From IMG/VR virus record IMGVR_UViG_3300045988_020424: a DNA stretch of 20,708 bases, one strand, 5' to 3'. A program made the translations under genes and the position numbers. Positions within the stretch are counted from its first letter, which is position 1. Each line of letters begins with the position of its first letter. Positions 1-20,559 of this stretch are shown here, one piece after another. This DNA is from a virus (lineage: Duplodnaviria > Heunggongvirae > Uroviricota > Caudoviricetes). A model generated the notes under the pieces. The model searched no databases. It was not told where the DNA came from and saw only the letters and a list, made by a program, of their open reading frames with translations.

Positions 1-105
1 AGGTTTCATTGGGGTATACGGTTCGCCGTTGTGATTGACAACATAAAGCTCTGCGCCGTGGAATGGCACGTTGATAGTAGATACTGCTGTTGCTATACTC
101 GTCAT
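1..105 (-). CDS. Antirepressor (Ant-like) N-terminal fragment; gene continues beyond the window start
   Basis: Minus-strand ATG at 103-105 with the frame open to the window edge. Translation MTSIATAVSTINVPFHGAELYVVNHNGEPYTPMKP shows the F-x-G-x-x-L-x-V-V...G-E-P-Y pattern I associate with phage antirepressor N-terminal domains. It lies directly downstream of the Arc-like gene, as in P22 immI. RBS is weak. Confidence 0.5.
   Translation of the reverse strand, partial: MTSIATAVSTINVPFHGAELYVVNHNGEPYTPMKP
71..99 (+). promoter_or_regulatory. Candidate sigma70 promoter for an antisense small RNA (TTGATA, 17-bp spacer, TATACT)
   Basis: -35 TTGATA at 71-76 and -10 TATACT at 94-99 with a 17-bp spacer. 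It sits inside the 5' end of the ant-like gene on the opposite strand, and predicts a start near 106. Confidence 0.3.
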
Positions 106-180
106 GTCGTTAATTCCTATACGTAGTTTTACGATACTGAAGCCCTGACGGTCTGGCCACCGTGGGGCTTCGCTGTTTTA
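106..180 (+). ncRNA. Candidate antisense small RNA (analogous to P22 sar) covering the ant RBS and the arc-ant junction
   Basis: Predicted transcript from the promoter above to a GC-rich hairpin (GAAGCCC 139-145 pairing with GGGCTTC 165-171, plus inner TGACGG/CCGT pairing) followed by GCTGTTTTA. The region is complementary to the ant RBS on the minus strand. Inferred by analogy; no expression evidence. Confidence 0.3.
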
Positions 181-345
181 TGCCACGCTATTCTTCTCAC
201 CAGTGAGTCCATACACTTTCCTCAGCTGATAGATAATCTCTGTATTGAACTTTCGGCATTCTTTTTCGCCATTTCTTTCAATAGCTAACTTCACATCGTC
301 CGGAAAACGAACTCGTCGTTGACACATCTCTTTTGCTTTTTGCAT
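178..345 (-). CDS. Arc/Mnt-family ribbon-helix-helix transcriptional repressor (55 aa)
   Basis: Start re-placed to the ATG at 343-345, preceded by RBS AGGAG with a 7-nt spacer; the ORF-track start at 396 is an upstream extension. Protein MQKAKEMCQRRVRFPDDVKLAIERNGEKECRKFNTEIIYQLRKVYG... resembles P22 Arc in length and in the R-x-P...NG-x-x-x-N-[ST]-E-I pattern (P22 Arc recalled from memory). Confidence 0.7.
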   Translation of the reverse strand: MQKAKEMCQRRVRFPDDVKLAIERNGEKECRKFNTEIIYQLRKVYGLTGEKNSVA

Positions 346-430
346 TTCATATCTCCTAATATGAATGGTTGGCCACACGATGGAAGGATTGTCCATTGAA
401 GGATAAATCCCCGTGGTACAAGTTTTGGTA

Positions 431-452
431 AGCCCGCGCTGCGGGCTTTTTT
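431..452 (+). terminator. Rho-independent terminator, plus-strand orientation
   Basis: Stem AGCCCGC (431-437), loop GCT, stem GCGGGCT (441-447) followed by a T-run through 452. No A-run precedes it, so it is not bidirectional. The same stem sequence recurs in the terminator at 17825-17849. Confidence 0.6.
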
Positions 453-490
453 GTGTCTGCGGATTCCCGCCCGGGTGGCGGTGGCATTCG

Positions 491-516
491 TTAAAAACAA
501 GGCCGCGAAAGCGGCC
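491..516 (-). terminator. Rho-independent terminator of the small membrane-protein gene and late operon (minus strand)
   Basis: Perfect hairpin GGCCGC-GAAA-GCGGCC at 501-516. On the minus strand it is followed by TTGTTTTTAA (plus 491-500). Confidence 0.55.
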
Positions 517-530
517 TGTGACATGTCACG
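517..530. repeat. Copy 1 of 14-bp motif CGTGACATGTCACA (minus-strand orientation; 12-bp perfect palindrome GTGACATGTCAC at 518-529)
   Basis: Read directly from the sequence. It contains the TGA stop codon of the membrane-protein gene (526-528) and abuts the terminator hairpin at 501-516. Confidence 0.85.
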
Positions 531-822
531 TCCCTTTTCTGAATGATAGCCATTCGAAAAATGATGACATTCCACCGCAGACAATAGCAAAGATGATCCC
601 ACCAAAGAAGAGAAGGCCAGCCTGCCACCACTCCCACCGCCATACATCCACAGCGCCAACCATACCAACAATCGCTCCAACAAATGGAATATAGCTCACG
701 ATGAAAGCAATGGGGGCTGCAATTATCCAGTGCAATCCCCACCATGATTCAAGCCCAGCCATAATTGCTGCCAACTGAAAAAGACCAACGACGATATAAA
801 CAATGAATCCTATAGCTTGCAT
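526..822 (-). CDS. Small integral membrane protein (98 aa, about 3 predicted TM helices), function unknown; candidate superinfection-exclusion or accessory protein
   Basis: Start re-placed to the ATG at 820-822 with RBS AGGTGA and a 5-nt spacer. Protein MQAIGFIVYIVVGLFQLAAIMAGL... is strongly hydrophobic. Its C-terminus is not highly charged, which argues against a canonical holin. Position between ejection-protein genes and the immI-like genes parallels sieA in P22. Confidence 0.6.
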   Translation of the reverse strand: MQAIGFIVYIVVGLFQLAAIMAGLESWWGLHWIIAAPIAFIVSYIPFVGAIVGMVGAVDVWRWEWWQAGLLFFGGIIFAIVCGGMSSFFEWLSFRKGT

Positions 823-5301: not shown

Positions 5302-7811
5302 TGCGGAATATCTCCGGAGAATCTCTGACGCTTCTGTGTCAGATCAAGAACAACGGGAGAACCATCATCTTTTAGCAGATAACCAGTACCAAGTTTCACC
5401 AGGTACTGACTATCGCCGTAACTTTGCAAACCATACTGACCAGGCGGTGTTTTTATCCCTGTGCCAACAACTTGTTCATTCCAAGCCTGATTAACCTGCT
5501 TATCGAATTGCTCTGCAGACATTCCCCACGGCAAAAGAACATTCCCCATTCCGTTATAGTCATGCACGCCACCTGTAGCTACGTTAACAGCCTGTTTCCA
5601 GATATCATTGTCAATTTCGCCTGATACCACGCCTTTTTTCGCCATCACACCAGCGTAATAGTCCTTTGCGATCTCGTATGCCATTGATGCCCCCTGAGCA
5701 TCACCAGCAAATGCATTCTTCACCATGTCAGAAAACTCAAGGCGAAGATCAGCATCTTTAGGCATCGGAATACCTTTCGCGTCATCAGTACCTTTACGAG
5801 CCGCCGCGCCAGCAAGAATTGTCTGCGCAGCGGTTTCTGGAGACACGGAAACATCCGGATTAAACCAGTTTTTTTCTGCCAAAATACCACCTGGCTTATC
5901 CATCAGTATCCCGGCAACGGCAGCAGATGGAGCGTTGGCACTGATCTGCTGTAGTGCTGACATATACACCTGCCCACCACCAGTGCTCTGCCTGATGGTA
6001 TCGAGATATGCTGCCTGTTGGGAAACGGGCGCATCACGAAAGAAAACACCGATCTGATTGGCCTCGTCTTTGGAAAAGAACGTCAGTGGAGTGCCATATG
6101 ACTTAGCAAGGTCACTGACCTGAGCAGCACGCAAGGCAACGCTCTGTCCAAAGTTATCCTTATTGCTCATGTCGATAGGCTTTGCCTGTCCGGCGGCAAG
6201 AGAGAACTGTACAGGATCAGCCTGTCGCTGCTTTATCACCTGACTTGCAGCCGACACAACGTTGTCATAAAGAGCGGCTCGTGCCGCATAACCCTCCCCT
6301 GTCTCACCAGTATCCGGGCGTAATTGCTCAACATATGCTGTAATGCTGCTTGTCGGCATGTTGCGGAAAGAGCCTATATACTGTCCGGCGATTTGCGTAT
6401 TTCTGAACTCGGTATATCGCAGGTTTCCTTCTCTTACTCCATAAGCTGCAATAAAATCAGCCTCACCAGGTGGGTTAGGAAATTCAACGCCACGCATATA
6501 CGCAGCTGTCGCATCGCGAACCTGGCTGTCAATCATCGTTTTATATTCAGCCTGCTGCTGCCGACGCAGTTGATCCGCCTGTCGCATAAAACTTGCCTGC
6601 GCCTCAGGAGATGCCGCATCGAATGCTGCATTACCGGTATAGCGTTTGGTGTTGGTTGGAATTGTTGATAAACCAAGTGCTGCACTGACACCAGCAGTTA
6701 ACTGCTGATCACTGTATGGCTGGCTACCGTTCTCATGATGGATAATGGCTGCACAAAGCGCCTTCAGGGTATCAGGATTAGATGCATCGAGAGGCTCATC
6801 AGCAGAAACGCCAAGTTGTTCGCACACTGCTTTGATATACGACATAGTGTCATTTTTATCAGTAGGCGGTGCCCAGCGATTAATTATCTCGCTGACGGTA
6901 TCAATACCCTGCCTCTGATACGACATCAGGTTCCGCCCTAATGCACGAATCCCGTGTTCAGGTGTTTCGAATTTAGCAAATCGACCATCATCACCGGTCT
7001 GGCCTACCCACGGATTAGTTTTGCTGTATTCGAGATTTCCTGGGTTATTGTTGCGTATGCCACGGGCACGCTCGGAAGAGTCACTATCTGCTACAGCACG
7101 GCGAGCTCCAGCAGCAGTATCACTTAACTCGCCATTACTTTGGATGAATGCGGTCGCATTGTTTGCCGACCACTGGGACAATGCAGCATCAGCAACCTTC
7201 TCTTTAAACTCGATTTTCTTGGCCTGGATTTGCTCGTCACTCCAGCCATGTGCAATGCCGTAATCCTCAATTTGCTGGAAAGTTTGCTTATTAGCCAATA
7301 CGTATGCGGCGTTGTCGCCATACAATGCTGCGGCATTTTTACCATTGTTCAGCAGCGTAGCCTGAAACTGGCCTTCTTCGTAGGCATTTATTTGCCCTAT
7401 CTCGTGCCGCCCGGCCTGCGTAGTGAACTGAATGCGCTGCTGCTGCGCCTGCTGCATGAAAGCATTACGAGCCTGTTCATCCGGCAGCGACATAGCCAGT
7501 TGTTCGACCTGAGCATCAAACTGCTGCGTATACTCCTGACCTTTTCCAATAGCATTTTTCCCTTTCAGGTTAAGCAATCCTGTTTCAGGATTATTCAGCA
7601 GATCACTGCTTATCTGACTGAGGTTAAGAGATGCCTCCTGAGCCAGAGCGATATTGGCACGCTGTTTTGCCTGACCAAAAACATCAATTGCCTCTGTCCC
7701 TGCCCGAACAAAAGCATCACCAATACCTGGCTGAGAAAACGTCTGCAAGCCTGCTGACTGAACTCCACGGCTCTGAACCTGACGGCCGGATACTGTTGGT
7801 ACGACTGGCAT
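5298..7811 (-). CDS. Large virion internal / ejection (core) protein, 837 aa
   Basis: Start re-placed to the ATG at 7809-7811 (MPVVPTVSG...) with RBS GGAGG and 6-nt spacer, overlapping the upstream stop (TAATG). The ORF-track start at 7886 is an extension. Function by position. Confidence 0.8.
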   Translation of the reverse strand: MPVVPTVSGRQVQSRGVQSAGLQTFSQPGIGDAFVRAGTEAIDVFGQAKQRANIALAQEASLNLSQISSDLLNNPETGLLNLKGKNAIGKGQEYTQQFDAQVEQLAMSLPDEQARNAFMQQAQQQRIQFTTQAGRHEIGQINAYEEGQFQATLLNNGKNAAALYGDNAAYVLANKQTFQQIEDYGIAHGWSDEQIQAKKIEFKEKVADAALSQWSANNATAFIQSNGELSDTAAGARRAVADSDSSERARGIRNNNPGNLEYSKTNPWVGQTGDDGRFAKFETPEHGIRALGRNLMSYQRQGIDTVSEIINRWAPPTDKNDTMSYIKAVCEQLGVSADEPLDASNPDTLKALCAAIIHHENGSQPYSDQQLTAGVSAALGLSTIPTNTKRYTGNAAFDAASPEAQASFMRQADQLRRQQQAEYKTMIDSQVRDATAAYMRGVEFPNPPGEADFIAAYGVREGNLRYTEFRNTQIAGQYIGSFRNMPTSSITAYVEQLRPDTGETGEGYAARAALYDNVVSAASQVIKQRQADPVQFSLAAGQAKPIDMSNKDNFGQSVALRAAQVSDLAKSYGTPLTFFSKDEANQIGVFFRDAPVSQQAAYLDTIRQSTGGGQVYMSALQQISANAPSAAVAGILMDKPGGILAEKNWFNPDVSVSPETAAQTILAGAAARKGTDDAKGIPMPKDADLRLEFSDMVKNAFAGDAQGASMAYEIAKDYYAGVMAKKGVVSGEIDNDIWKQAVNVATGGVHDYNGMGNVLLPWGMSAEQFDKQVNQAWNEQVVGTGIKTPPGQYGLQSYGDSQYLVKLGTGYLLKDDGSPVVLDLTQKRQRFSGDIPQ

Positions 7812-14486: not shown

Positions 14487-14783
14487 TCACTCCTGTTCAC
14501 TGGCCTCTTTGGCCATCTTCAAATACTGTTCAGGGCAATGCGCCATAACGCGCTGAAACAGTTCCAGCGCCAGATTGCGTTGCCCCTCATTAAATGCCAT
14601 TGCCATAGCATCCATCGGAGAGATAGCGGAAAACACCCGGCCTTTCTCCAGCACCGACCAGACAACGCGACGCCCCTGTTCACTGCTCATGACAAAGCGA
14701 ATGTCATCAATTTCACGCTGTGCCATGTCACGTTGCTTACGGGCGTTTTCTTCTTTCAGTTGATCGTCTTCGTAATCTGTCAT
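14487..14783 (-). CDS. Hypothetical small protein (98 aa) between portal and scaffold
   Basis: ATG at 14781-14783 overlaps the portal stop (ATGA); its stop is 2 nt from the scaffold start. Charged, helical-looking sequence. Confidence 0.7.
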   Translation of the reverse strand: MTDYEDDQLKEENARKQRDMAQREIDDIRFVMSSEQGRRVVWSVLEKGRVFSAISPMDAMAMAFNEGQRNLALELFQRVMAHCPEQYLKMAKEASEQE

Positions 14784-16680: not shown

Positions 16681-17107
16681 ATCAATGACTCCGTACGCAA
16701 TTAAATTATTACCAATTTAACCACATATGATTTATTTATCGTAGAAGGTTGACATTTAACGCGTTAATTATTACCTTTCAGGTAACCAAAGGGCTCATTC
16801 TGGTTACTAACCTGACTGGCTTGTCGTTAAATTAAACAGGTGGAGTGAGCTTTTATTTTGAGCAGTACGGCGTATGGCACATGCGCCGATAGCGGTCTGG
16901 ATACGTTTAAGGGGCACCCTCCCTGGCTGTGGCAAACGAACCAGGTAGCCGGAATGTGCAAGTCGAGCGGTTTTATTCCGCGCACGGGGATTCACCATCC
17001 CGGCGATTCGGTGTGACGCCTCGGAAGAGACGAGGGTACAACGATGAGAGCATTTATGGAGCCGCGACAAAGTGTGGCGCCTTAACAGGCTAAGTGCTCT
17101 CAGCGTT

Positions 17108-17184
17108 GTGGCATTAGCTCAGTTGGACAGAGCAACCGCCTTCTAAGCGGTTGGTCGCAGGTTCGAATCCTGCATGCCACGCCA
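17108..17184 (+). tRNA. tRNA-Arg (anticodon TCT, reads AGA), 77 nt with encoded CCA
   Basis: Manual fold: acceptor GTGGCAT/ATGCCAC, D-stem GCTC/GAGC, anticodon stem ACCGC/GCGGT, loop CTTCTAA (U33, anticodon TCT, A37), variable loop TGGTC, T-stem GCAGG/CCTGC, T-loop TTCGAAT, discriminator G, CCA. D-arm and T-arm match E. coli argU as I recall it, with different acceptor and anticodon stems. Confidence 0.9.
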
Positions 17185-17227
17185 GAATCACGCCTAAGGA
17201 CCGTGATGCCAGAAGTTCCAGGTGCTT

Positions 17228-17269
17228 GGCGGTGATGGTTTCCCTTGAAGGACTATCACCGCCCTTTTT
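17228..17269 (+). terminator. Rho-independent terminator downstream of the tRNA
   Basis: 9-bp stem GGCGGTGAT (17228-17236) pairing with ATCACCGCC (17255-17263), 18-nt loop, then CTTTTTA. Confidence 0.6.
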
Positions 17270-17347
17270 ACAGCAGGACGCCATTGCGATGACTTCATGC
17301 TGTAAACCAGTACAGCCACGGAAGGCATAACTCATTGCTTCCAGTTC

Positions 17348-17370
17348 GCCCGGTTCGCCGGGCATTTTTT
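17348..17370 (+). terminator. Terminator-like hairpin 12 nt upstream of the moron start codon (possible sRNA terminator or attenuator)
   Basis: GCCCGG-TTCG-CCGGGC, a perfect 6-bp stem with tetraloop (17348-17363), followed by ATTTTTT (17364-17370) and then RBS AAGGTGAG. Confidence 0.5.
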
Positions 17371-17381
17371 AAGGTGAGATC

Positions 17382-17804
17382 ATGAAGACAATTGATATGT
17401 TGGCTAAGTATCTAAATGAATGGCCATTAAAATATTCTCGTATCGTTCAGGCTGAAGACTGCATTTTTTATGGCGTTTTTGCTGGTAATGAAATGCATTA
17501 CGAAGTAATTCAGAGTGAGGGACTGGCCGGGTTAACTCTTAGCGAAGACCATGGTACTAGCGTTACGTACCATGACTGGATTTCAGCGCAGAAAACTGAA
17601 ATGGAAAAAGGCAATGTGTTTGATATTTCTCGCGCTGTATACGCCAAAGAAAAAAGTGATGATGATTACATGCGCGAAAACTTATACAACATGAAGTTAC
17701 AATGCCTGGCTGAAGTGCTTAGTAAAAGATCTTTACTTGATGTGGTTGGTGCTGAGCAGGACGCCAAGGCAATCAACGCCGCATTCGATAAAATAACCTT
17801 CTAA
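17382..17804 (+). CDS. Moron: hypothetical 140-aa protein of unknown function, opposite strand to the structural operon
   Basis: ATG at 17382 with RBS AGGTGA and TAA stop at 17802-17804. Only convincing plus-strand gene in the window, visibly AT-richer than its neighbours, followed by its own terminator. Protein MKTIDMLAKYLNEWPLKYSRIVQAEDCIFYG... has no TM segment or signal peptide and no family I recognise. Confidence 0.75.
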   Translation: MKTIDMLAKYLNEWPLKYSRIVQAEDCIFYGVFAGNEMHYEVIQSEGLAGLTLSEDHGTSVTYHDWISAQKTEMEKGNVFDISRAVYAKEKSDDDYMRENLYNMKLQCLAEVLSKRSLLDVVGAEQDAKAINAAFDKITF

Positions 17805-17807
17805 CGC

Positions 17808-17821
17808 CGTGACATGTCACA
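17808..17821. repeat. Copy 2 of 14-bp motif CGTGACATGTCACA (plus orientation)
   Basis: Read directly from the sequence. Lies 4 nt after the moron stop codon and 3 nt before the terminator hairpin. Confidence 0.85.
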
Positions 17822-17824
17822 ATC

Positions 17825-17849
17825 AGCCCGCCGATTCGCGGGCTTTTTT
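17825..17849 (+). terminator. Rho-independent terminator of the moron
   Basis: AGCCCGC (17825-17831), loop CGATTC, GCGGGCT (17838-17844), T-run to 17849. Same stem sequence as the terminator at 431-452. The T-run overlaps the terL stop codon on the other strand. Confidence 0.65.
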
Positions 17850-19323
17850 ATGCAAAAGGATCATAGTCTGTGATGGCTTTGCCTTGCTGGTTCTGCTGCC
17901 CGGGAATTCGCAGACGCTTCGACACAGGGAACGCAAACGTCAGCAGTAGCGCATCGCCTTTACCAGGAGAACGCCCAAGTCGCTCTTTGATATCTTCCTT
18001 CGGTTCGATAACGATTTTACCGTCCACGCGAACTTTGTACTCTGCCGTCGACAGGTCGTCCGCTGTTTCCTGGTCATCCAGCATGCCGCCGAGCCTCAGC
18101 CATGTCTTGCATGAGTTGAACATCTCCCCACGCTTGTTGAGCATCTGCGGGTCAGTAGACGCGCCACCGAACGGAACAAGTTGCCATGTACGACCCCAGC
18201 CGTCACCGATTGACTTCAAACCGGTTCCGTAACCGAAGTCGATGAACACCGCGTCAGCCTGATACTGGTCTTCAAAGTCAGCGATACGCTTCGCCATAAT
18301 CAGATCGTCGGTAGTCTTGTTGCCAGTCCACAGCACCTTACTGTGTAGCCCCTGCCGCAGGTATATCACCGCGTCATCAACGCCGGAGTATGCCGGGTCA
18401 ACGCCGATTATCACCGGAGCATGTGCCACCTGCGCAGCGGTTACCACCCGTTTCATTGCCTCGTCAGTAAGACCGGTAGGGATAAACTGCAATTCAGATG
18501 CATCAGGGAATATGCCGCGCACACGGATTTTAACGAAGTCGCTGTCTTCCCCGTAGTCATCAACCCATTTCTGCAACTGCTGTTTGTTAGTGCCTTCCAC
18601 CGTTCGGCTGTCAATCTGCGCAGTTTTCCAGCGGTGTTTATATTTGCGGAAACATTCGCGGAAACGTCCGGTATTACGCGTCGGGTTTCCGAACGCCACC
18701 CAGATAATCTCAGTGTCTTCGTCCGTTAGTGCACCCTCGGCAACTTCCCACACCAGATCCGCAATGTTCGACGCTTCATCGAATACCACGATGATGCGTT
18801 TGCGCTCGTTGTGTAGTCCGGCGAATGCCTCAGTGTTGTGCTCAGACCAGGGGATTGCGTCAGCTCGCCACCGCTTGTCGTGTCCAGGATCATTGCTGTA
18901 CATCGCGGTAGCGGTACAGGTAAACCAGTCTTTCGTGATAGCAAGGTTCGACCACTTGATAATTTCCGGCCAGGTCTTCGTTCGTAGCTGGTTGTCGGTG
19001 TTGGCGGTCACCACAACCTTACAATCCTCGCAAGTGGACATGCCCCAGTTGATCAGCATTGAGATGAATGCGGATTTACCAATACCGTGACCAGAAGCGC
19101 GTGCCAGCATAAGCGGCTGATAACGCGTCTCTGGATTCTGCAGGTGATCACGTATCTCTCGGAACGCATCGGCCTGCCACTGACGTGGACCGGTAGCATG
19201 TGCCAGTTCAGTCCCCTCTTCCCCCCAAGGGAACGCATAGAGGGCATAGCCAAGCGGATCGTGAGTGAACCCTGCAATATCTTCGATTAACTGCTCTTCA
19301 GGAGATAACGCTGCATCTGTCAC
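17848..19323 (-). CDS. Terminase large subunit, 491 aa
   Basis: Walker A-like motif GHGIGKSAF near the N-terminus, size about 490 aa, position directly after the small subunit. Apparent GTG start at 19321-19323 overlaps the terS stop (GTGA). Confidence 0.9.
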   Translation of the reverse strand: MTDAALSPEEQLIEDIAGFTHDPLGYALYAFPWGEEGTELAHATGPRQWQADAFREIRDHLQNPETRYQPLMLARASGHGIGKSAFISMLINWGMSTCEDCKVVVTANTDNQLRTKTWPEIIKWSNLAITKDWFTCTATAMYSNDPGHDKRWRADAIPWSEHNTEAFAGLHNERKRIIVVFDEASNIADLVWEVAEGALTDEDTEIIWVAFGNPTRNTGRFRECFRKYKHRWKTAQIDSRTVEGTNKQQLQKWVDDYGEDSDFVKIRVRGIFPDASELQFIPTGLTDEAMKRVVTAAQVAHAPVIIGVDPAYSGVDDAVIYLRQGLHSKVLWTGNKTTDDLIMAKRIADFEDQYQADAVFIDFGYGTGLKSIGDGWGRTWQLVPFGGASTDPQMLNKRGEMFNSCKTWLRLGGMLDDQETADDLSTAEYKVRVDGKIVIEPKEDIKERLGRSPGKGDALLLTFAFPVSKRLRIPGQQNQQGKAITDYDPFA

Positions 19324-19916
19324 TGATTGCCATCCTGACGTTCTTTCAGTCTCTTCCTGGCTGCCGCTATGCGATCAGCAATTGTCACATTCACATTAAC
19401 ATCCAGGCGTTCTTTGAATGCATTGACATCGACGTGCTTACCAATCAGTTCGAGGTTCTTCACCTTGTCAGGCCATTTAATTTTTTTGAGGATTGTCTCT
19501 ATCGAATCCTCGTCCATGTTCATGATGGTCGATGACAGATCAAAGCCGCTAAGCGTAGTGCGCCAGATTTTCGGCCACTCGCGGATTGGCTTAAGGCTCC
19601 CATCGTCGTTGAGGATATCAATCACGTCCATCTGGTCGATCTCCACCAGGCGCATGAGAACGTAATCAGCACTGACGCGCATTCGTTTGTTGCGCTCCTC
19701 CATCAACTCGGCAATCCGTTTCTGAATGCGTTCATCGCGCATCATGACACTGGCTTTAACTGCCGCTGTATTTGGGGAGAATCCTGCATTAATCGCAGCC
19801 TGAGTCTGATTTTCAGGCGTTTTGATGTATGACTGGCAATAAGCCTCCTGCATTGCTGTTAGTGGCTTAAATTGCGTTGATTTGCGTTTATAGGTTTTAG
19901 GTTCAGCAGGCATCAT
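19320..19916 (-). CDS. Terminase small subunit, about 198 aa
   Basis: Start re-placed to the ATG pair at 19911-19916 (MMPAEPKTYKRK...) after a GGTGG RBS; the ORF-track start at 19994 would run through an upstream terminator and repeat region. Basic N-terminal segment, then helical domain, directly upstream of terL. Confidence 0.7.
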   Translation of the reverse strand: MMPAEPKTYKRKSTQFKPLTAMQEAYCQSYIKTPENQTQAAINAGFSPNTAAVKASVMMRDERIQKRIAELMEERNKRMRVSADYVLMRLVEIDQMDVIDILNDDGSLKPIREWPKIWRTTLSGFDLSSTIMNMDEDSIETILKKIKWPDKVKNLELIGKHVDVNAFKERLDVNVNVTIADRIAAARKRLKERQDGNQ

Positions 19917-19921
19917 AACCA

Positions 19922-19959
19922 CCATGGTAATAGTTACCGTTGTGGTAATAGTACCATGC
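19922..19959. promoter_or_regulatory. Repeat-rich element immediately upstream of terS (candidate late promoter / regulator or terminase-binding site)
   Basis: Imperfect palindrome: CATGGTA (19923-19929) and TACCATG (19952-19958) flank two GGTAATAGT direct repeats and a GGTAA-N3-TTACC inverted repeat. A -10-like TACTAT lies on the minus strand. Confidence 0.35.
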
Positions 19960-19960
19960 A

Positions 19961-19985
19961 AAATAAAGCCGCCATAGTTGGCGGC
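19961..19985 (-). terminator. Rho-independent terminator between the upstream small gene and terS (minus strand)
   Basis: GCCGCC (19968-19973), 6-nt loop, GGCGGC (19980-19985). On the minus strand it is followed by TTTATTTT (plus 19961-19967). Confidence 0.5.
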
Positions 19986-19990
19986 AGTAT

Positions 19991-20203
19991 TCAAAGTCCA
20001 TCAAATTCATCGTAAAAACTCTCGTCAAGATACCCTTCCCATTTACCGCGAATGAAAATTACATCCTCGCCGCAAGGGTGCTGACTGTCGATAACTATAT
20101 CCCTCCTGGCGCAACCATACTTATGCATGAGAAATTTAACCTCTTTCGGAAAATTTGCTGAGTTATCTCTCATATCTTCAAGGTCGTAGCGTATTTTTGG
20201 CAT
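19991..20203 (-). CDS. Hypothetical small protein, 70 aa
   Basis: Start re-placed to the ATG at 20201-20203 (MPKIRYDLEDMRD...) preceded by GAAGGTG; the ORF-track start at 20224 lies inside the palindrome. No family recognised. Confidence 0.5.
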   Translation of the reverse strand: MPKIRYDLEDMRDNSANFPKEVKFLMHKYGCARRDIVIDSQHPCGEDVIFIRGKWEGYLDESFYDEFDGL

Positions 20204-20211
20204 AACACCTT

Positions 20212-20225
20212 CGTGACATGTCACA
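20212..20225. repeat. Copy 3 of 14-bp motif CGTGACATGTCACA (plus orientation)
   Basis: Read directly from the sequence. It contains the TGA stop (20221-20223) of the 112-aa gene and sits immediately upstream of the RBS of the 70-aa gene. Confidence 0.85.
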
Positions 20226-20559
20226 CTATTAATTTCGTTTCATGCCAGCCTTTAGTCACCCAGCATTGCGAGTCACCATTACACGGGCATGAATTAACGG
20301 GAACTCTCTCGCCGCACTTACCGCAAAGTTTTCTGCTGATCGATTTTATACGCCCGCGCACACGTGCATCATCCTGGCGGATCAGCAGCGCGATGTACTC
20401 GGCCATTTCATAGGGATCGTGACCAGGGCGCCGGGCGGCGCAGTTCCGCGCCAGCATTTCCTGCTCCTGCTTATCCAGCACCAGTTCAATTTTGCGCTCA
20501 CCGGCGGCGGACTGCCGAGCGCGCTGCGCGGCTTTGCGCTCTGCTGCTGATTTAGCCAT
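20221..20559 (-). CDS. Hypothetical Cys-rich (zinc-ribbon-like) basic protein, 112 aa
   Basis: ATG at 20557-20559 with RBS AAGGTGA (the ORF-track start is a TTG one codon upstream). Basic Ala/Arg/Lys-rich N-terminus and C-terminal CGKCG...CPC...C cluster suggest a zinc-binding nucleic-acid-binding protein. No family assigned. Confidence 0.55.
   Translation of the reverse strand: MAKSAAERKAAQRARQSAAGERKIELVLDKQEQEMLARNCAARRPGHDPYEMAEYIALLIRQDDARVRGRIKSISRKLCGKCGERVPVNSCPCNGDSQCWVTKGWHETKLIV

What the first reader, a model, noticed from the sequence alone, without database searches (positions are those of the whole stretch)
517..530. 14-bp motif CGTGACATGTCACA (12-bp perfect palindrome) present three times at gene 3' ends, twice fused to a terminator
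Copies lie at 517-530 (inverted), 17808-17821 and 20212-20225. A given 12-mer is expected about 0.001 times in 20 kb, so three exact copies are not chance. Each copy sits at the 3' end of a gene, and in two cases the stop codon TGA is inside the palindrome. Copies 1 and 2 are each followed within 0-3 nt, in the direction of transcription, by a GC-rich hairpin plus T-run, forming a composite palindrome-terminator module at the ends of the two accessory genes (membrane protein and moron). Candidate roles are a protein binding site, an RNA processing site, or a recombination scar marking cassette boundaries.
Basis: seen in the sequence. Interest (0 to 1): 0.65.

Follow-up and report, generated by a model that had tools for sequence, protein, structure and literature searches.

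The report
Docking site of a phage regulator
The thrice-repeated palindrome is most likely the docking site of a small, uncharacterised DNA-binding protein encoded beside one copy; the protein and site occur together in many unrelated temperate phages, but what binding does to gene expression is still unknown.

Summary
CGTGACATGTCACA occurs exactly three times, where about 0.02 copies are expected. Two copies contain a TGA stop codon, and two abut intrinsic terminators.

The window is a phiV10/epsilon15-like (Uetakevirus) late region. The same palindrome sits at the same three junctions in phiV10, epsilon15, Tyrion and over 100 prophage contigs, although the flanking genes differ.

The decisive clue is copy 3. 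It overlaps the stop codon of a 112-aa gene (20221-20559, minus strand; PHROG 536, no Pfam family). The predicted protein has a ribbon-helix-helix (RHH) fold plus a Cys-rich knuckle.

Homologues of this gene down to 34% identity carry YGTGAC-NN-GTCACR on or next to their own stop codon. They occur in a Pectobacterium myovirus, N15-like plasmid-prophages, Yersinia P2-like phages, Vibrio phages, and Erwinia, Pantoea and Xenorhabdus lambdoid prophages. Most of these genomes have one or two further copies. In total there are 394 sites in 3.2 Mb against 3 expected. The arms never vary, and the central dinucleotide differs by clade.

The motif is therefore the cognate operator of this protein family. 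Its effect is inferred only; my best guess is a roadblock or insulator at transcription-unit ends. The site is matS minus one central base, but the protein shows no demonstrable homology to MatP.

The parts
20212..20225 (-). Site 3. The palindrome (core 20213-20224) overlaps the TGA stop codon (20223-20221) of the RHH/Cys-rich regulator gene. Read in the direction of that gene it is TGTGACATGTCACG.
   Evidence: The same overlap occurs in 77 of 80 close relatives and in distant homologues.
20221..20559 (-). Gene for the probable binding protein, 112 aa. It has a basic N-terminal helix, a ribbon-helix-helix core, a long helix and a Cys-rich knuckle (C79, C82, C91/C93, C99). It is the epsilon15 gp49 / phiV10 p55 / N15 gp46 family.
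19991..20203 (-). Variable slot after site 3. Here it holds a 70-aa ORF (PHROG 1541). In phiv142-3 and TL-2011b it is reduced to an 8-codon remnant. In other relatives it is replaced by a LexA-box promoter or by a terminator only.
19968..19985 (-). Intrinsic-terminator-like hairpin between the early-right operon end (site 3) and the terS promoter/operator region.
   Evidence: Repressor-operator-like TTACC-N5-GGTAA at 19934-19948.
17808..17821 (+). Site 2. It lies between the convergent moron gene and terL, 3 nt after the moron stop and 3 nt before the terminator hairpin.
   Evidence: The site is syntenic in phiV10, epsilon15 and Tyrion.
17825..17850 (+). Terminator hairpin plus T run for the moron transcript. 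Read from the terL side, the same hairpin is followed by the palindrome instead of a U tract.
17382..17804 (+). Accessory (moron) gene, 140 aa, PHROG 4846. It is one of at least 10 alternative occupants of the slot next to site 2.
517..530 (-). Site 1. It lies at the end of the structural (late) operon. The TGA of the last gene is inside the palindrome, and the terminator hairpin starts at the last base of the 14-mer.
490..517 (-). Terminator hairpin (517->500) plus T run that ends the late operon.
526..822 (-). Accessory membrane-protein gene (PHROG 3075). It is one of at least 7 alternative occupants of the slot before site 1.

Best explanation
The palindrome is the cognate DNA recognition site (operator) of the small protein encoded at 20221-20559 on the minus strand. 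Its extended form is YGTGAC-NN-GTCACR. The protein has a ribbon-helix-helix (RHH) fold plus a Cys-rich knuckle.

Shown: the gene family and the site co-occur across at least seven unrelated temperate-phage lineages. One copy almost always lies on or within 10 nt of the gene's own stop codon. The two 5-bp arms and the Y/R flanks are invariant, while the 2-bp centre drifts.

Inferred: a symmetric dimer reads the two arms. The protein is made at the very end of an early operon, so it fills the adjacent site first, in cis.

Inferred with less certainty (about 35-40% given that binding is real): the bound protein acts on RNA polymerase that is elongating rather than initiating. In this reading it is a roadblock or insulator. 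In the Uetakevirus lineage it would seal the three ends of the rightward transcription units: the early-right operon, terS-terL and the structural operon. These ends abut variable, often convergently transcribed accessory genes. The copy on its own stop codon would also give negative feedback by truncating its own mRNA.

The confidence given (0.7) is for the protein-site pairing, not for the roadblock effect.
For: (1) Three exact copies in the window against 0.02 expected.

(2) The same three junctions carry the site in phiV10, phiv142-3, TL-2011b (two of the three), epsilon15 and Tyrion, at only about 76-81% DNA identity and with different neighbouring genes.

(3) In 77 of 80 close homologue loci the site overlaps the stop codon.

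(4) Distant homologues show the same association.
- ZF40 gp22 (68% id): the site is 2 nt after the stop, plus 2 more copies.
- N15 gp46 (38% id): GTGACTGGTCAC lies over the stop, plus 2 more.
- 49 N15-like loci: 105 sites against 0.84 expected, and all 49 have one on the stop codon.
- 56 Yersinia P2-like loci: 58 sites against 0.87 expected, 52 of them at the stop.
- Vibrio K303 (34% id): 3 sites.
- Erwinia and Pantoea prophages: over the stop. Xenorhabdus: inside the cII/YdaT-like gene.

(5) Pooled over 248 loci with a family member (3.21 Mb) there are 394 sites against 3.06 expected. The arms are 100% invariant, the flanks are Y/R in 99% of cases, and the centre is clade-specific: AT, TG, GC or AC.

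(6) Sites embedded in coding DNA keep the 12-mer while neighbouring codons diverge, as in N15-like repA and in cII-like genes that are 58% identical.

(8) In a 100-kb sample of E. coli K-12 there are no such sites.

(9) For the roadblock idea: no site overlaps a recognisable promoter in the window. Sites sit at unit ends, inside early genes a few hundred bp downstream of early promoters (ZF40, N15, L030), or on the regulator's own stop codon.
Against: No binding experiment exists, and the inference rests on co-occurrence.

Some homologues lack a site at their own stop (L030, L037, Xenorhabdus). Some contigs have 2-3 sites without a detectable family member in the stretch retrieved (L115, L029, L056).

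The same 12-mer occurs in other bacteria in contexts that probably involve other proteins: tandem arrays in Sorangium and Jettenia, and upstream of a GntR-type gene. The sequence is therefore not exclusive to this family.

For the roadblock reading specifically, a single dimer on 14 bp is a weak obstacle. In N15 one site lies 24 nt upstream of a -35 box, and in some relatives site 3 lies 6 nt upstream of a LexA-controlled promoter. Those positions would fit ordinary promoter control instead.
Confidence: 0.7

Rival explanations
1. The binding partner is the same, but the effect is opposite. The sites are loading points from which the protein modifies elongating RNA polymerase so that it reads through the terminators that follow. 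This would resemble lambda Q at qut or RfaH at ops, and would link the early-right operon, terS-terL and the structural operon into one late transcript.
For: The regulator gene is the last gene of the early-right operon and lies directly upstream of its site, as lambda Q lies before qut. In the late direction, sites 3 and 1 are followed by terminators. In ZF40 two sites flank the immunity region in the manner of nutL and nutR. A profile of the family gives weak hits to the TraR/YbiI zinc finger, a group of RNA-polymerase secondary-channel factors, at E 0.04-0.07.
Against: At site 2 the hairpin precedes the site in the late direction. N15 has its own Q-like late activator, gene 40. The TraR-like hit is not supported by the Pfam scan of 58 members or by Foldseek, and the Cys spacing differs from that of TraR. 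To my knowledge, no RHH protein is known to act as an antiterminator.
Confidence: 0.15
2. The palindrome is primarily a recombination site or linker. It would be a short conserved sequence at module borders where accessory cassettes are exchanged, with or without help from the phage RecE/RecT-type recombination genes annotated in these phages. Protein binding would be incidental.
For: At each of the three junctions one flank is constant and the other falls into 7-10 unrelated clusters, with the break exactly at the motif. RecT-type recombinases are encoded by these phages.
Against: This does not explain copies kept inside essential coding genes (repA, cII-like), where flanks are syntenic. It does not explain the fixed link to one gene family's stop codon in seven lineages. 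It does not explain invariant arms with a free centre, which is the signature of a dimeric reader. Accessory genes also accumulate at transcription-unit ends for independent reasons.
Confidence: 0.1
3. The sites are read by a host protein rather than a phage protein. One candidate is MatP, because the site equals its matS target minus one central base pair. Another is an unidentified host regulator of Enterobacterales and Vibrionales.
Against: The spacing is 2 in every one of 394 sites and never 3. Removing one base pair rotates the arms by about 34 degrees. True matS is avoided by prophages (PMC3603311). A host reader would not explain why one copy tracks the stop codon of a particular phage gene.
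Confidence: 0.07
4. The element works in RNA, as a processing, stability or translation signal at mRNA 3' ends or between cistrons.
For: All copies in the window are transcribed at gene 3' ends. Site 3 lies 8 nt before the next start codon and is followed by a Shine-Dalgarno-like sequence, and the N15 copy is similar.
Against: Only a 4-5 bp mini-hairpin is predicted, independent of the terminators, and for site 3 the fold is no better than shuffles. There is no compensatory variation: the arms are invariant in sequence over very distant phages. Copies occur in both orientations and inside coding frames.
Confidence: 0.04

Closest known systems
MatP / matS (Ter macrodomain organiser of E. coli and relatives)
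   Different: matS is 13 bp with a 3-bp centre, whereas the phage site always has a 2-bp centre. No sequence homology is detectable (hhalign probability 0.2-0.3%). The phage protein lacks MatP's four-helix bundle and carries a Cys-rich knuckle instead. The sites are on phage DNA at gene and operon ends, not in the chromosomal terminus.
Phage and plasmid ribbon-helix-helix repressors with palindromic operators (P22 Arc and Mnt, plasmid CopG, antitoxins such as TacA, ParD and MazE)
   Same: The predicted fold is the same. All are small dimeric readers of short symmetric DNA. This window also encodes an Arc-like protein next to a sar RNA.
   Different: Those operators overlap the promoter of the regulated operon. 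Here one site overlaps the regulator's own stop codon, and the others lie at transcription-unit ends or inside coding genes. The family also has an extra Cys-rich domain and belongs to no Pfam family.
Lambda Q and its qut site
   Same: A delayed-early regulator gene sits at the end of the early-right operon with its DNA site immediately downstream, which favours action in cis. In the Uetakevirus layout the packaging and structural genes follow.
   Different: No promoter or pause signal overlaps the site in this window. There is no homology to any Q family. N15 carries both a Q-like gene and this family.
Roadblock repression by DNA-bound regulators inside transcription units (for example PurR in purB, or LacI at O2; from my own knowledge)
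   Same: Operators are located within or at the end of coding regions, far from promoters.
   Different: Those regulators also have primary promoter operators. A roadblock role here is inference only.
Moron and module boundaries of mosaic temperate phages (terminator-flanked accessory genes; from my own knowledge of the HK97/HK022 and HK620 genome comparisons)
   Same: Variable accessory genes are bounded by a terminator, and the break between constant and variable DNA is sharp.
   Different: To my knowledge, no conserved 14-bp protein-site-like palindrome has been described at such boundaries. The richly annotated epsilon15 record has no feature at these positions. A full-text search for the 12-mer found no paper.

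Membership tests
Ribbon-helix-helix regulator with cognate palindromic operator | The protein has the beta-alpha-alpha RHH fold. | tested here: met
Ribbon-helix-helix regulator with cognate palindromic operator | A short symmetric DNA site co-inherited with the gene. | tested here: met
   394 sites against 3.06 expected in 248 loci that carry the gene. Most loci have one at the gene's own stop codon.
Ribbon-helix-helix regulator with cognate palindromic operator | Physical, sequence-specific binding of the protein to the site. | not testable with these tools
   This needs EMSA, footprinting or ChIP.
Ribbon-helix-helix regulator with cognate palindromic operator | The operator overlaps the promoter of the regulated operon. 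| tested here: not met
   No convincing sigma-70 promoter overlaps any of the three copies. The copies sit at gene 3' ends.
matS / MatP system | A 13-bp site, GTGAC[AG]N[TC]GTCAC. | tested here: not met
   All phage sites have a 2-bp centre. The consensus is taken from PMC3603311. A true matS was found in the K-12 Ter sample, which serves as a positive control for the search.
Intrinsic (Rho-independent) terminator | A GC-rich hairpin directly followed by a U tract. | tested here: not met
   The palindrome itself folds only into a 4-5 bp stem and has no U tract. The true terminators are the separate neighbouring hairpins. Relatives in other lineages have sites without any terminator.
CRP site / LacI-GalR type operator | TGTGA-N6-TCACA (CRP), or a 14-bp operator with a central CG step together with a LacI-family reader (both from my own knowledge). 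| tested here: not met
   The spacing between TGTGA and TCACA is 4, not 6 (direct reading). The centre is AT, TG, GC or AC and is not fixed as CG. The outer T/A of TGTGA...TCACA is only Y/R.
Lambda-Q-type late antiterminator with qut | Q-family protein, with the site embedded in a promoter that has a proximal pause. | tested here: not met
   No Phage_antitermQ hit. There is no promoter at the site in this window.
Dispersed host repeat (REP/BIME-like) | Abundant throughout the host chromosome. | tested here: not met
   0 sites in 100 kb of E. coli K-12. The 14-mer occurs at background level across unrelated taxa, with roughly 15 of the 120 returned loci from Enterobacterales by their record titles; six of these carry a family member within the 8 kb retrieved. 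Only a sample of the chromosome was read.
DksA/TraR-type zinc finger | A C4 finger, CxxC-x17-CxxC, matching Pfam zf-dskA_traR (from my own knowledge). | tested here: not met
   Only weak profile hits to YbiI and TraR at E 0.04-0.07. No Pfam hit in 58 members. Foldseek finds no such match. The family pattern is CxxC-x7-8-C-x7-8-C.

The most novel reading that the evidence does not exclude
An undescribed regulatory module shared by podo-, myo- and siphovirus-type temperate phages and by N15-like plasmid-prophages. A ribbon-helix-helix/zinc-knuckle 'gatekeeper' is made at the very end of an early operon and docks in cis on a matS-like 14-bp site overlapping its own stop codon, and on one or two further sites. 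From the DNA it acts on elongating RNA polymerase, either as a roadblock/insulator or as an antitermination loader. It would thereby set the boundaries or the timing of phage transcription units. A more remote version is a phage analogue of MatP that marks phage DNA for, or against, host chromosome-organising machinery.
Probability: 0.2. Interest if true: 0.8.

Novelty: new variant of a known kind. Interest (0 to 1): 0.6.

Why it matters
If the pairing holds, it assigns a function (sequence-specific DNA binding) and a precise target to a protein family annotated only as 'hypothetical' or 'transcriptional regulator'. The family comprises about 900 clusters at 90% identity and 188 at 50%.

It also reveals a regulatory layer in epsilon15/phiV10-type, N15-type, P2-type and several lambdoid phages that their published maps do not show. 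The placement of the operator is unusual: on the regulator's own stop codon and at the ends of transcription units.

The hypothesis is directly testable. It concerns how temperate phages insulate or connect operons and why accessory 'moron' slots sit where they do. The one-base difference from matS gives a clean experimental handle on how an RHH reader measures spacing.

In practice, the 14-bp site is a useful landmark for annotating unit boundaries and cargo slots in prophages of E. coli O157, Salmonella, Klebsiella and related bacteria.

Tried and rejected
(1) The epsilon15 record's annotated repressor sites. They are ATTACC-N5-GGTAAT, a different motif. Copies of that motif occur in the window at 16771-16785 and 19934-19948.

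(2) Promoter reading. GTGACA could serve as a -35 box with TAAATT 17 bp downstream in epsilon15, but the -10 is absent in the window, ZF40 and N15 (direct reading).

(3) Packaging (pac) site. Rejected because N15-like and P2-like phages carry the system although, to my knowledge, they package from cos sites. In addition there are three copies per genome.

(4) MatP homology. The profile comparison is negative.

(5) TraR/DksA zinc finger. The weak hits were not confirmed.

(6) Literature. There is no paper containing the 12-mer. General searches gave nothing on this family. The epsilon15 genome paper (PMC2698709) is not held, so I cannot exclude that it mentions the palindrome.

(7) The one-mismatch copy at 14719-14732. 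It lies in coding DNA and is not conserved.

(8) The 14-mer scan of bacterial genomes. It mostly returns chance hits in unrelated taxa and says little about the host chromosome. A 100-kb K-12 sample was read instead.

(9) A small RHH-like ORF flanked by three sites in a beta-proteobacterial MAG (L325). It aligns to the family over 55 columns, but not significantly (E 0.022, probability 2%).

Full report
**1.

CGTGACATGTCACA is present exactly at 517-530 (minus strand), 17808-17821 and 20212-20225. Matches within two mismatches to the 14-mer are expected 0.18 times in dinucleotide-preserving shuffles. The looser pattern GTGACNNGTCAC also gives just these three sites against 0.02 expected.

- Copy 1: the TGA inside the palindrome ends a 98-aa membrane-protein gene (526-822 minus, PHROG 3075).
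- Copy 3: the TGA ends a 112-aa gene (20221-20559 minus).
- Copy 2: it starts 3 nt after the TAA of a 140-aa accessory gene.
- Terminator-like hairpins with T runs follow copies 1 and 2 at 0 and 3 nt.
- A fourth copy with one mismatch, at 14719-14732, lies in coding DNA and is not conserved. I discount it.

**2. What the window is**

It is the packaging and structural half of a phiV10/epsilon15-like podovirus (genus Uetakevirus). It is 96-98% identical to several E. coli phages and 76-81% identical to Salmonella epsilon15 and Enterobacter phage Tyrion. The late genes run on the minus strand, in this order:

- regulator-like gene (20559->20221)
- a 70-aa ORF
- terS and terL (to 17848)
- a plus-strand island with the moron and tRNA-Arg
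- the portal-to-tail genes
- two small membrane ORFs
- a P22 immI-like module with an Arc-like gene and a sar RNA

**3. Conservation at the same junctions**

Complete genomes of phiV10, phiv142-3, TL-2011b, epsilon15 and Tyrion each hold GTGAC-NN-GTCAC only at the three equivalent places. Two caveats apply: the third copy is split by the record ends in phiV10 and Tyrion, and the terL-side copy is lost in TL-2011b. No other spacing occurs.

A scan of viral contigs for the 14-mer returned over 100 stretches. Most are Uetakevirus-like and fall into the same three classes.

At each class one flank is constant: the regulator gene, the terL-side terminator or the late-operon terminator. The other flank falls into 7-10 unrelated sequence clusters. 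The motif therefore marks the exact edge of three hypervariable accessory slots. The adjacent terminator hairpins vary in sequence, whereas the motif does not. The epsilon15 GenBank record lists repressor, IHF, RNase III and terminator features but has nothing at these positions. Its 'repressor' sites are a different motif, ATTACC-N5-GGTAAT.

**4. The link to one gene**

Copy 3 overlaps the stop codon of the gene at 20221-20559. In 77 of 80 close relatives of that gene, fetched without reference to the motif, the palindrome overlaps the stop codon, while what follows it differs. I then followed the protein into unrelated phages.

| Lineage | Identity | Where the sites are |
|---|---|---|
| Pectobacterium myovirus ZF40 gp22 | 68% | GTGACATGTCAC 2 nt after the stop, plus two further copies |
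| N15 gene 46 | 38% | GTGACTGGTCAC over the stop, plus two further copies |
| 49 N15-like contigs | – | 105 sites vs 0.84 expected; all 49 have one on the stop codon; two other positionally conserved classes, one inside repA and one 24 nt upstream of the -35 box of a promoter |
| 56 Yersinia P2-like contigs | – | 58 sites vs 0.87 expected; 52 at the stop (GTGACGCGTCAC) |
| Vibrio phage K303 | 34% | three sites, one 31 nt before terS |
| Erwinia and Pantoea lambdoid prophages | 60-66% | over the stop |
| Xenorhabdus prophages and contigs L030, L037 | 49-55% | at the same codons of the cII/YdaT-like gene, as in ZF40, with diverged flanking codons |

Pooled over 248 loci with a family member (3.2 Mb) there are 394 sites against 3.06 expected. 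Both arms are invariant. The flanking position is Y/R in 99% of 162 distinct contexts, although part of this set was ascertained with the 14-mer itself. The central dinucleotide is clade-specific. Invariant arms around a free centre, preserved even inside coding frames, is the signature of a dimeric sequence-specific DNA reader. It is not what an RNA hairpin would show.

**5. The protein**

It has no Pfam or NCBIfam family. It is PHROG 536, labelled 'transcriptional regulator'. It belongs to a small family: 188 clusters at 50% identity among 1.84 billion representatives, and about 900 clusters at 90%.

With a 58-sequence alignment, AlphaFold gives a confident model (pLDDT 91.5). It consists of a basic helix, a short strand, two helices of which the second is long, and a Cys-rich knuckle with two invariant and one nearly invariant Cys.

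A profile search of the PDB gave weak hits to the TraR/YbiI zinc finger (E 0.04-0.07). Pfam scans and Foldseek did not support these, and the Cys spacing differs. I treat this as an unconfirmed lead.

**6. Relation to matS**

**7. What does binding do?**

This part is inference.

In the Uetakevirus layout the three sites mark the 3' ends of three consecutive rightward units: the early-right operon, terS-terL and the structural operon. Each lies upstream of a repressor-operator-bearing start of the next unit, with accessory genes in between that are often convergently transcribed.

In ZF40, N15 and the lambdoid prophages, sites lie inside early genes a few hundred bp downstream of the early promoters, and at the end of the operon that encodes the regulator.

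No site in the window overlaps a promoter. RHH proteins are, with few exceptions, repressors. I therefore favour a roadblock or insulator that acts on elongating polymerase. It would be loaded first in cis on the copy at its own stop codon, which would also truncate its own mRNA and so give feedback.

The opposite effect, loading of an antitermination activity before terminators, is a live rival. In N15 and some relatives a site sits just upstream of a promoter, so ordinary promoter control may also occur.

**8. Alternatives considered**

- RNA element. The fold is a 4-5 bp mini-hairpin, independent of the terminators.
- Recombination linker. This explains the mosaic edges but not the coding-embedded, syntenic copies or the tie to one gene.
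- Host factor. The spacing and the gene linkage argue against it.
- Abundant host repeat. Not seen.

A caution applies to the whole argument.

**9. Novelty**

No paper in the searchable library contains the 12-mer. The epsilon15 genome paper could not be read.

The kind, an RHH regulator with a palindromic operator, is known. Three things appear to be undescribed: the family itself, the operator's position on the regulator's own stop codon and at unit ends, and its spread over at least seven phage lineages.

Noticed in passing
window 1-470: A P22 immI-like module lies next to site 1. It has an Rfam sar RNA hit at 107-174 (+), an Arc-like ORF at 178-396 (-), and the start of an Ant-like ORF at about 109 running leftwards off the window. 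A second terminator-like hairpin lies at 430-448 (+). E. coli prophage matches to this end of the window start only at 358, so the immI part is itself a mosaic insert.
   Followed up: partly
window 16771-16785, 19916-19930 and 19934-19948: Copies of the epsilon15-type repressor operator (TTACC-N5-GGTAA). They lie upstream of the first structural gene and of terS. There are 3 matches against 0.34 expected.
   Followed up: partly
window 16700-17380: A stretch of about 400 nt with no long ORF precedes a plus-strand tRNA-Arg(TCT) at 17108-17184. Strong hairpins follow at 17228-17263 and 17348-17363. The epsilon15 record annotates an RNase III site in the equivalent region.
   Followed up: no
window 19991-20203 (-): A 70-aa ORF (PHROG 1541) lies between site 3 and the terminator. 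In phiv142-3 and TL-2011b only its first two and last six codons remain, as an 8-codon remnant. This looks like a deletion derivative.
   Followed up: partly
L007, L025, L036, L097, L008 (viral contigs): In some Uetakevirus relatives, site 3 is followed 6 nt later by TTGACT-N17-TACTGT with a perfect LexA box (TACTGTTTAAATATACAGTA). An SOS-controlled promoter therefore abuts the site.
   Followed up: no
L207 (N15) 28550-28561: One N15 site lies 24 nt upstream of TTGACG-N17/18-TAGAGT. This promoter-like pair is followed about 90 nt later by the terminator annotated at 28413-28435, upstream of gene 32. From memory this is the small-RNA/anti-immunity region of N15, but I did not verify that.
   Followed up: partly
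L012, L017, L022, L074, L115, L124; L059-L081 group (viral contigs): The exact 14-mer also lies at the very start of a Q-antiterminator-like gene (ATG CGT GAC ATG TCA CAG, MRDMSQ...). It also lies inside the zinc-finger codons of lambda-Q-type genes (SVTCHSC). L115 has three sites in 10.8 kb with no family member in the stretch held. L074 has a family member 12 kb away. These may be real targets rather than coding coincidences.
   Followed up: partly
L375, L331, L427, L393, L420 (Sorangium); L394 (Jettenia): Tandem arrays of the identical 12-mer GTGACATGTCAC with an 18-22 bp period occur in distant bacteria. They resemble iteron or centromere arrays. No family member is nearby.
   Followed up: partly
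L325 6625-6905 (beta-proteobacterial MAG): An 82-aa ORF (6649-6897) has a basic helix plus an RHH-like pattern and no Cys domain. It has the palindrome 12 nt before its ATG, once inside it (GTGACACGTCAC), and over its own TGA stop. This looks like a minimal version of the same arrangement, but hhalign to the family is not significant (E 0.022).
   Followed up: partly
L110, L053, L024, L072, L043 (viral contigs): Clusters of GTGACA/TGTCAC(G) half-sites surround one full palindrome, in an iteron-like arrangement. No family member was detected.
   Followed up: no
L004 (epsilon15) 26618-26629: GTGACATGGCAT, which has two mismatches to the motif, overlaps the TGA stop of the Rz-like spanin gene at the end of the lysis operon. 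It may be a decayed fourth site.
   Followed up: no
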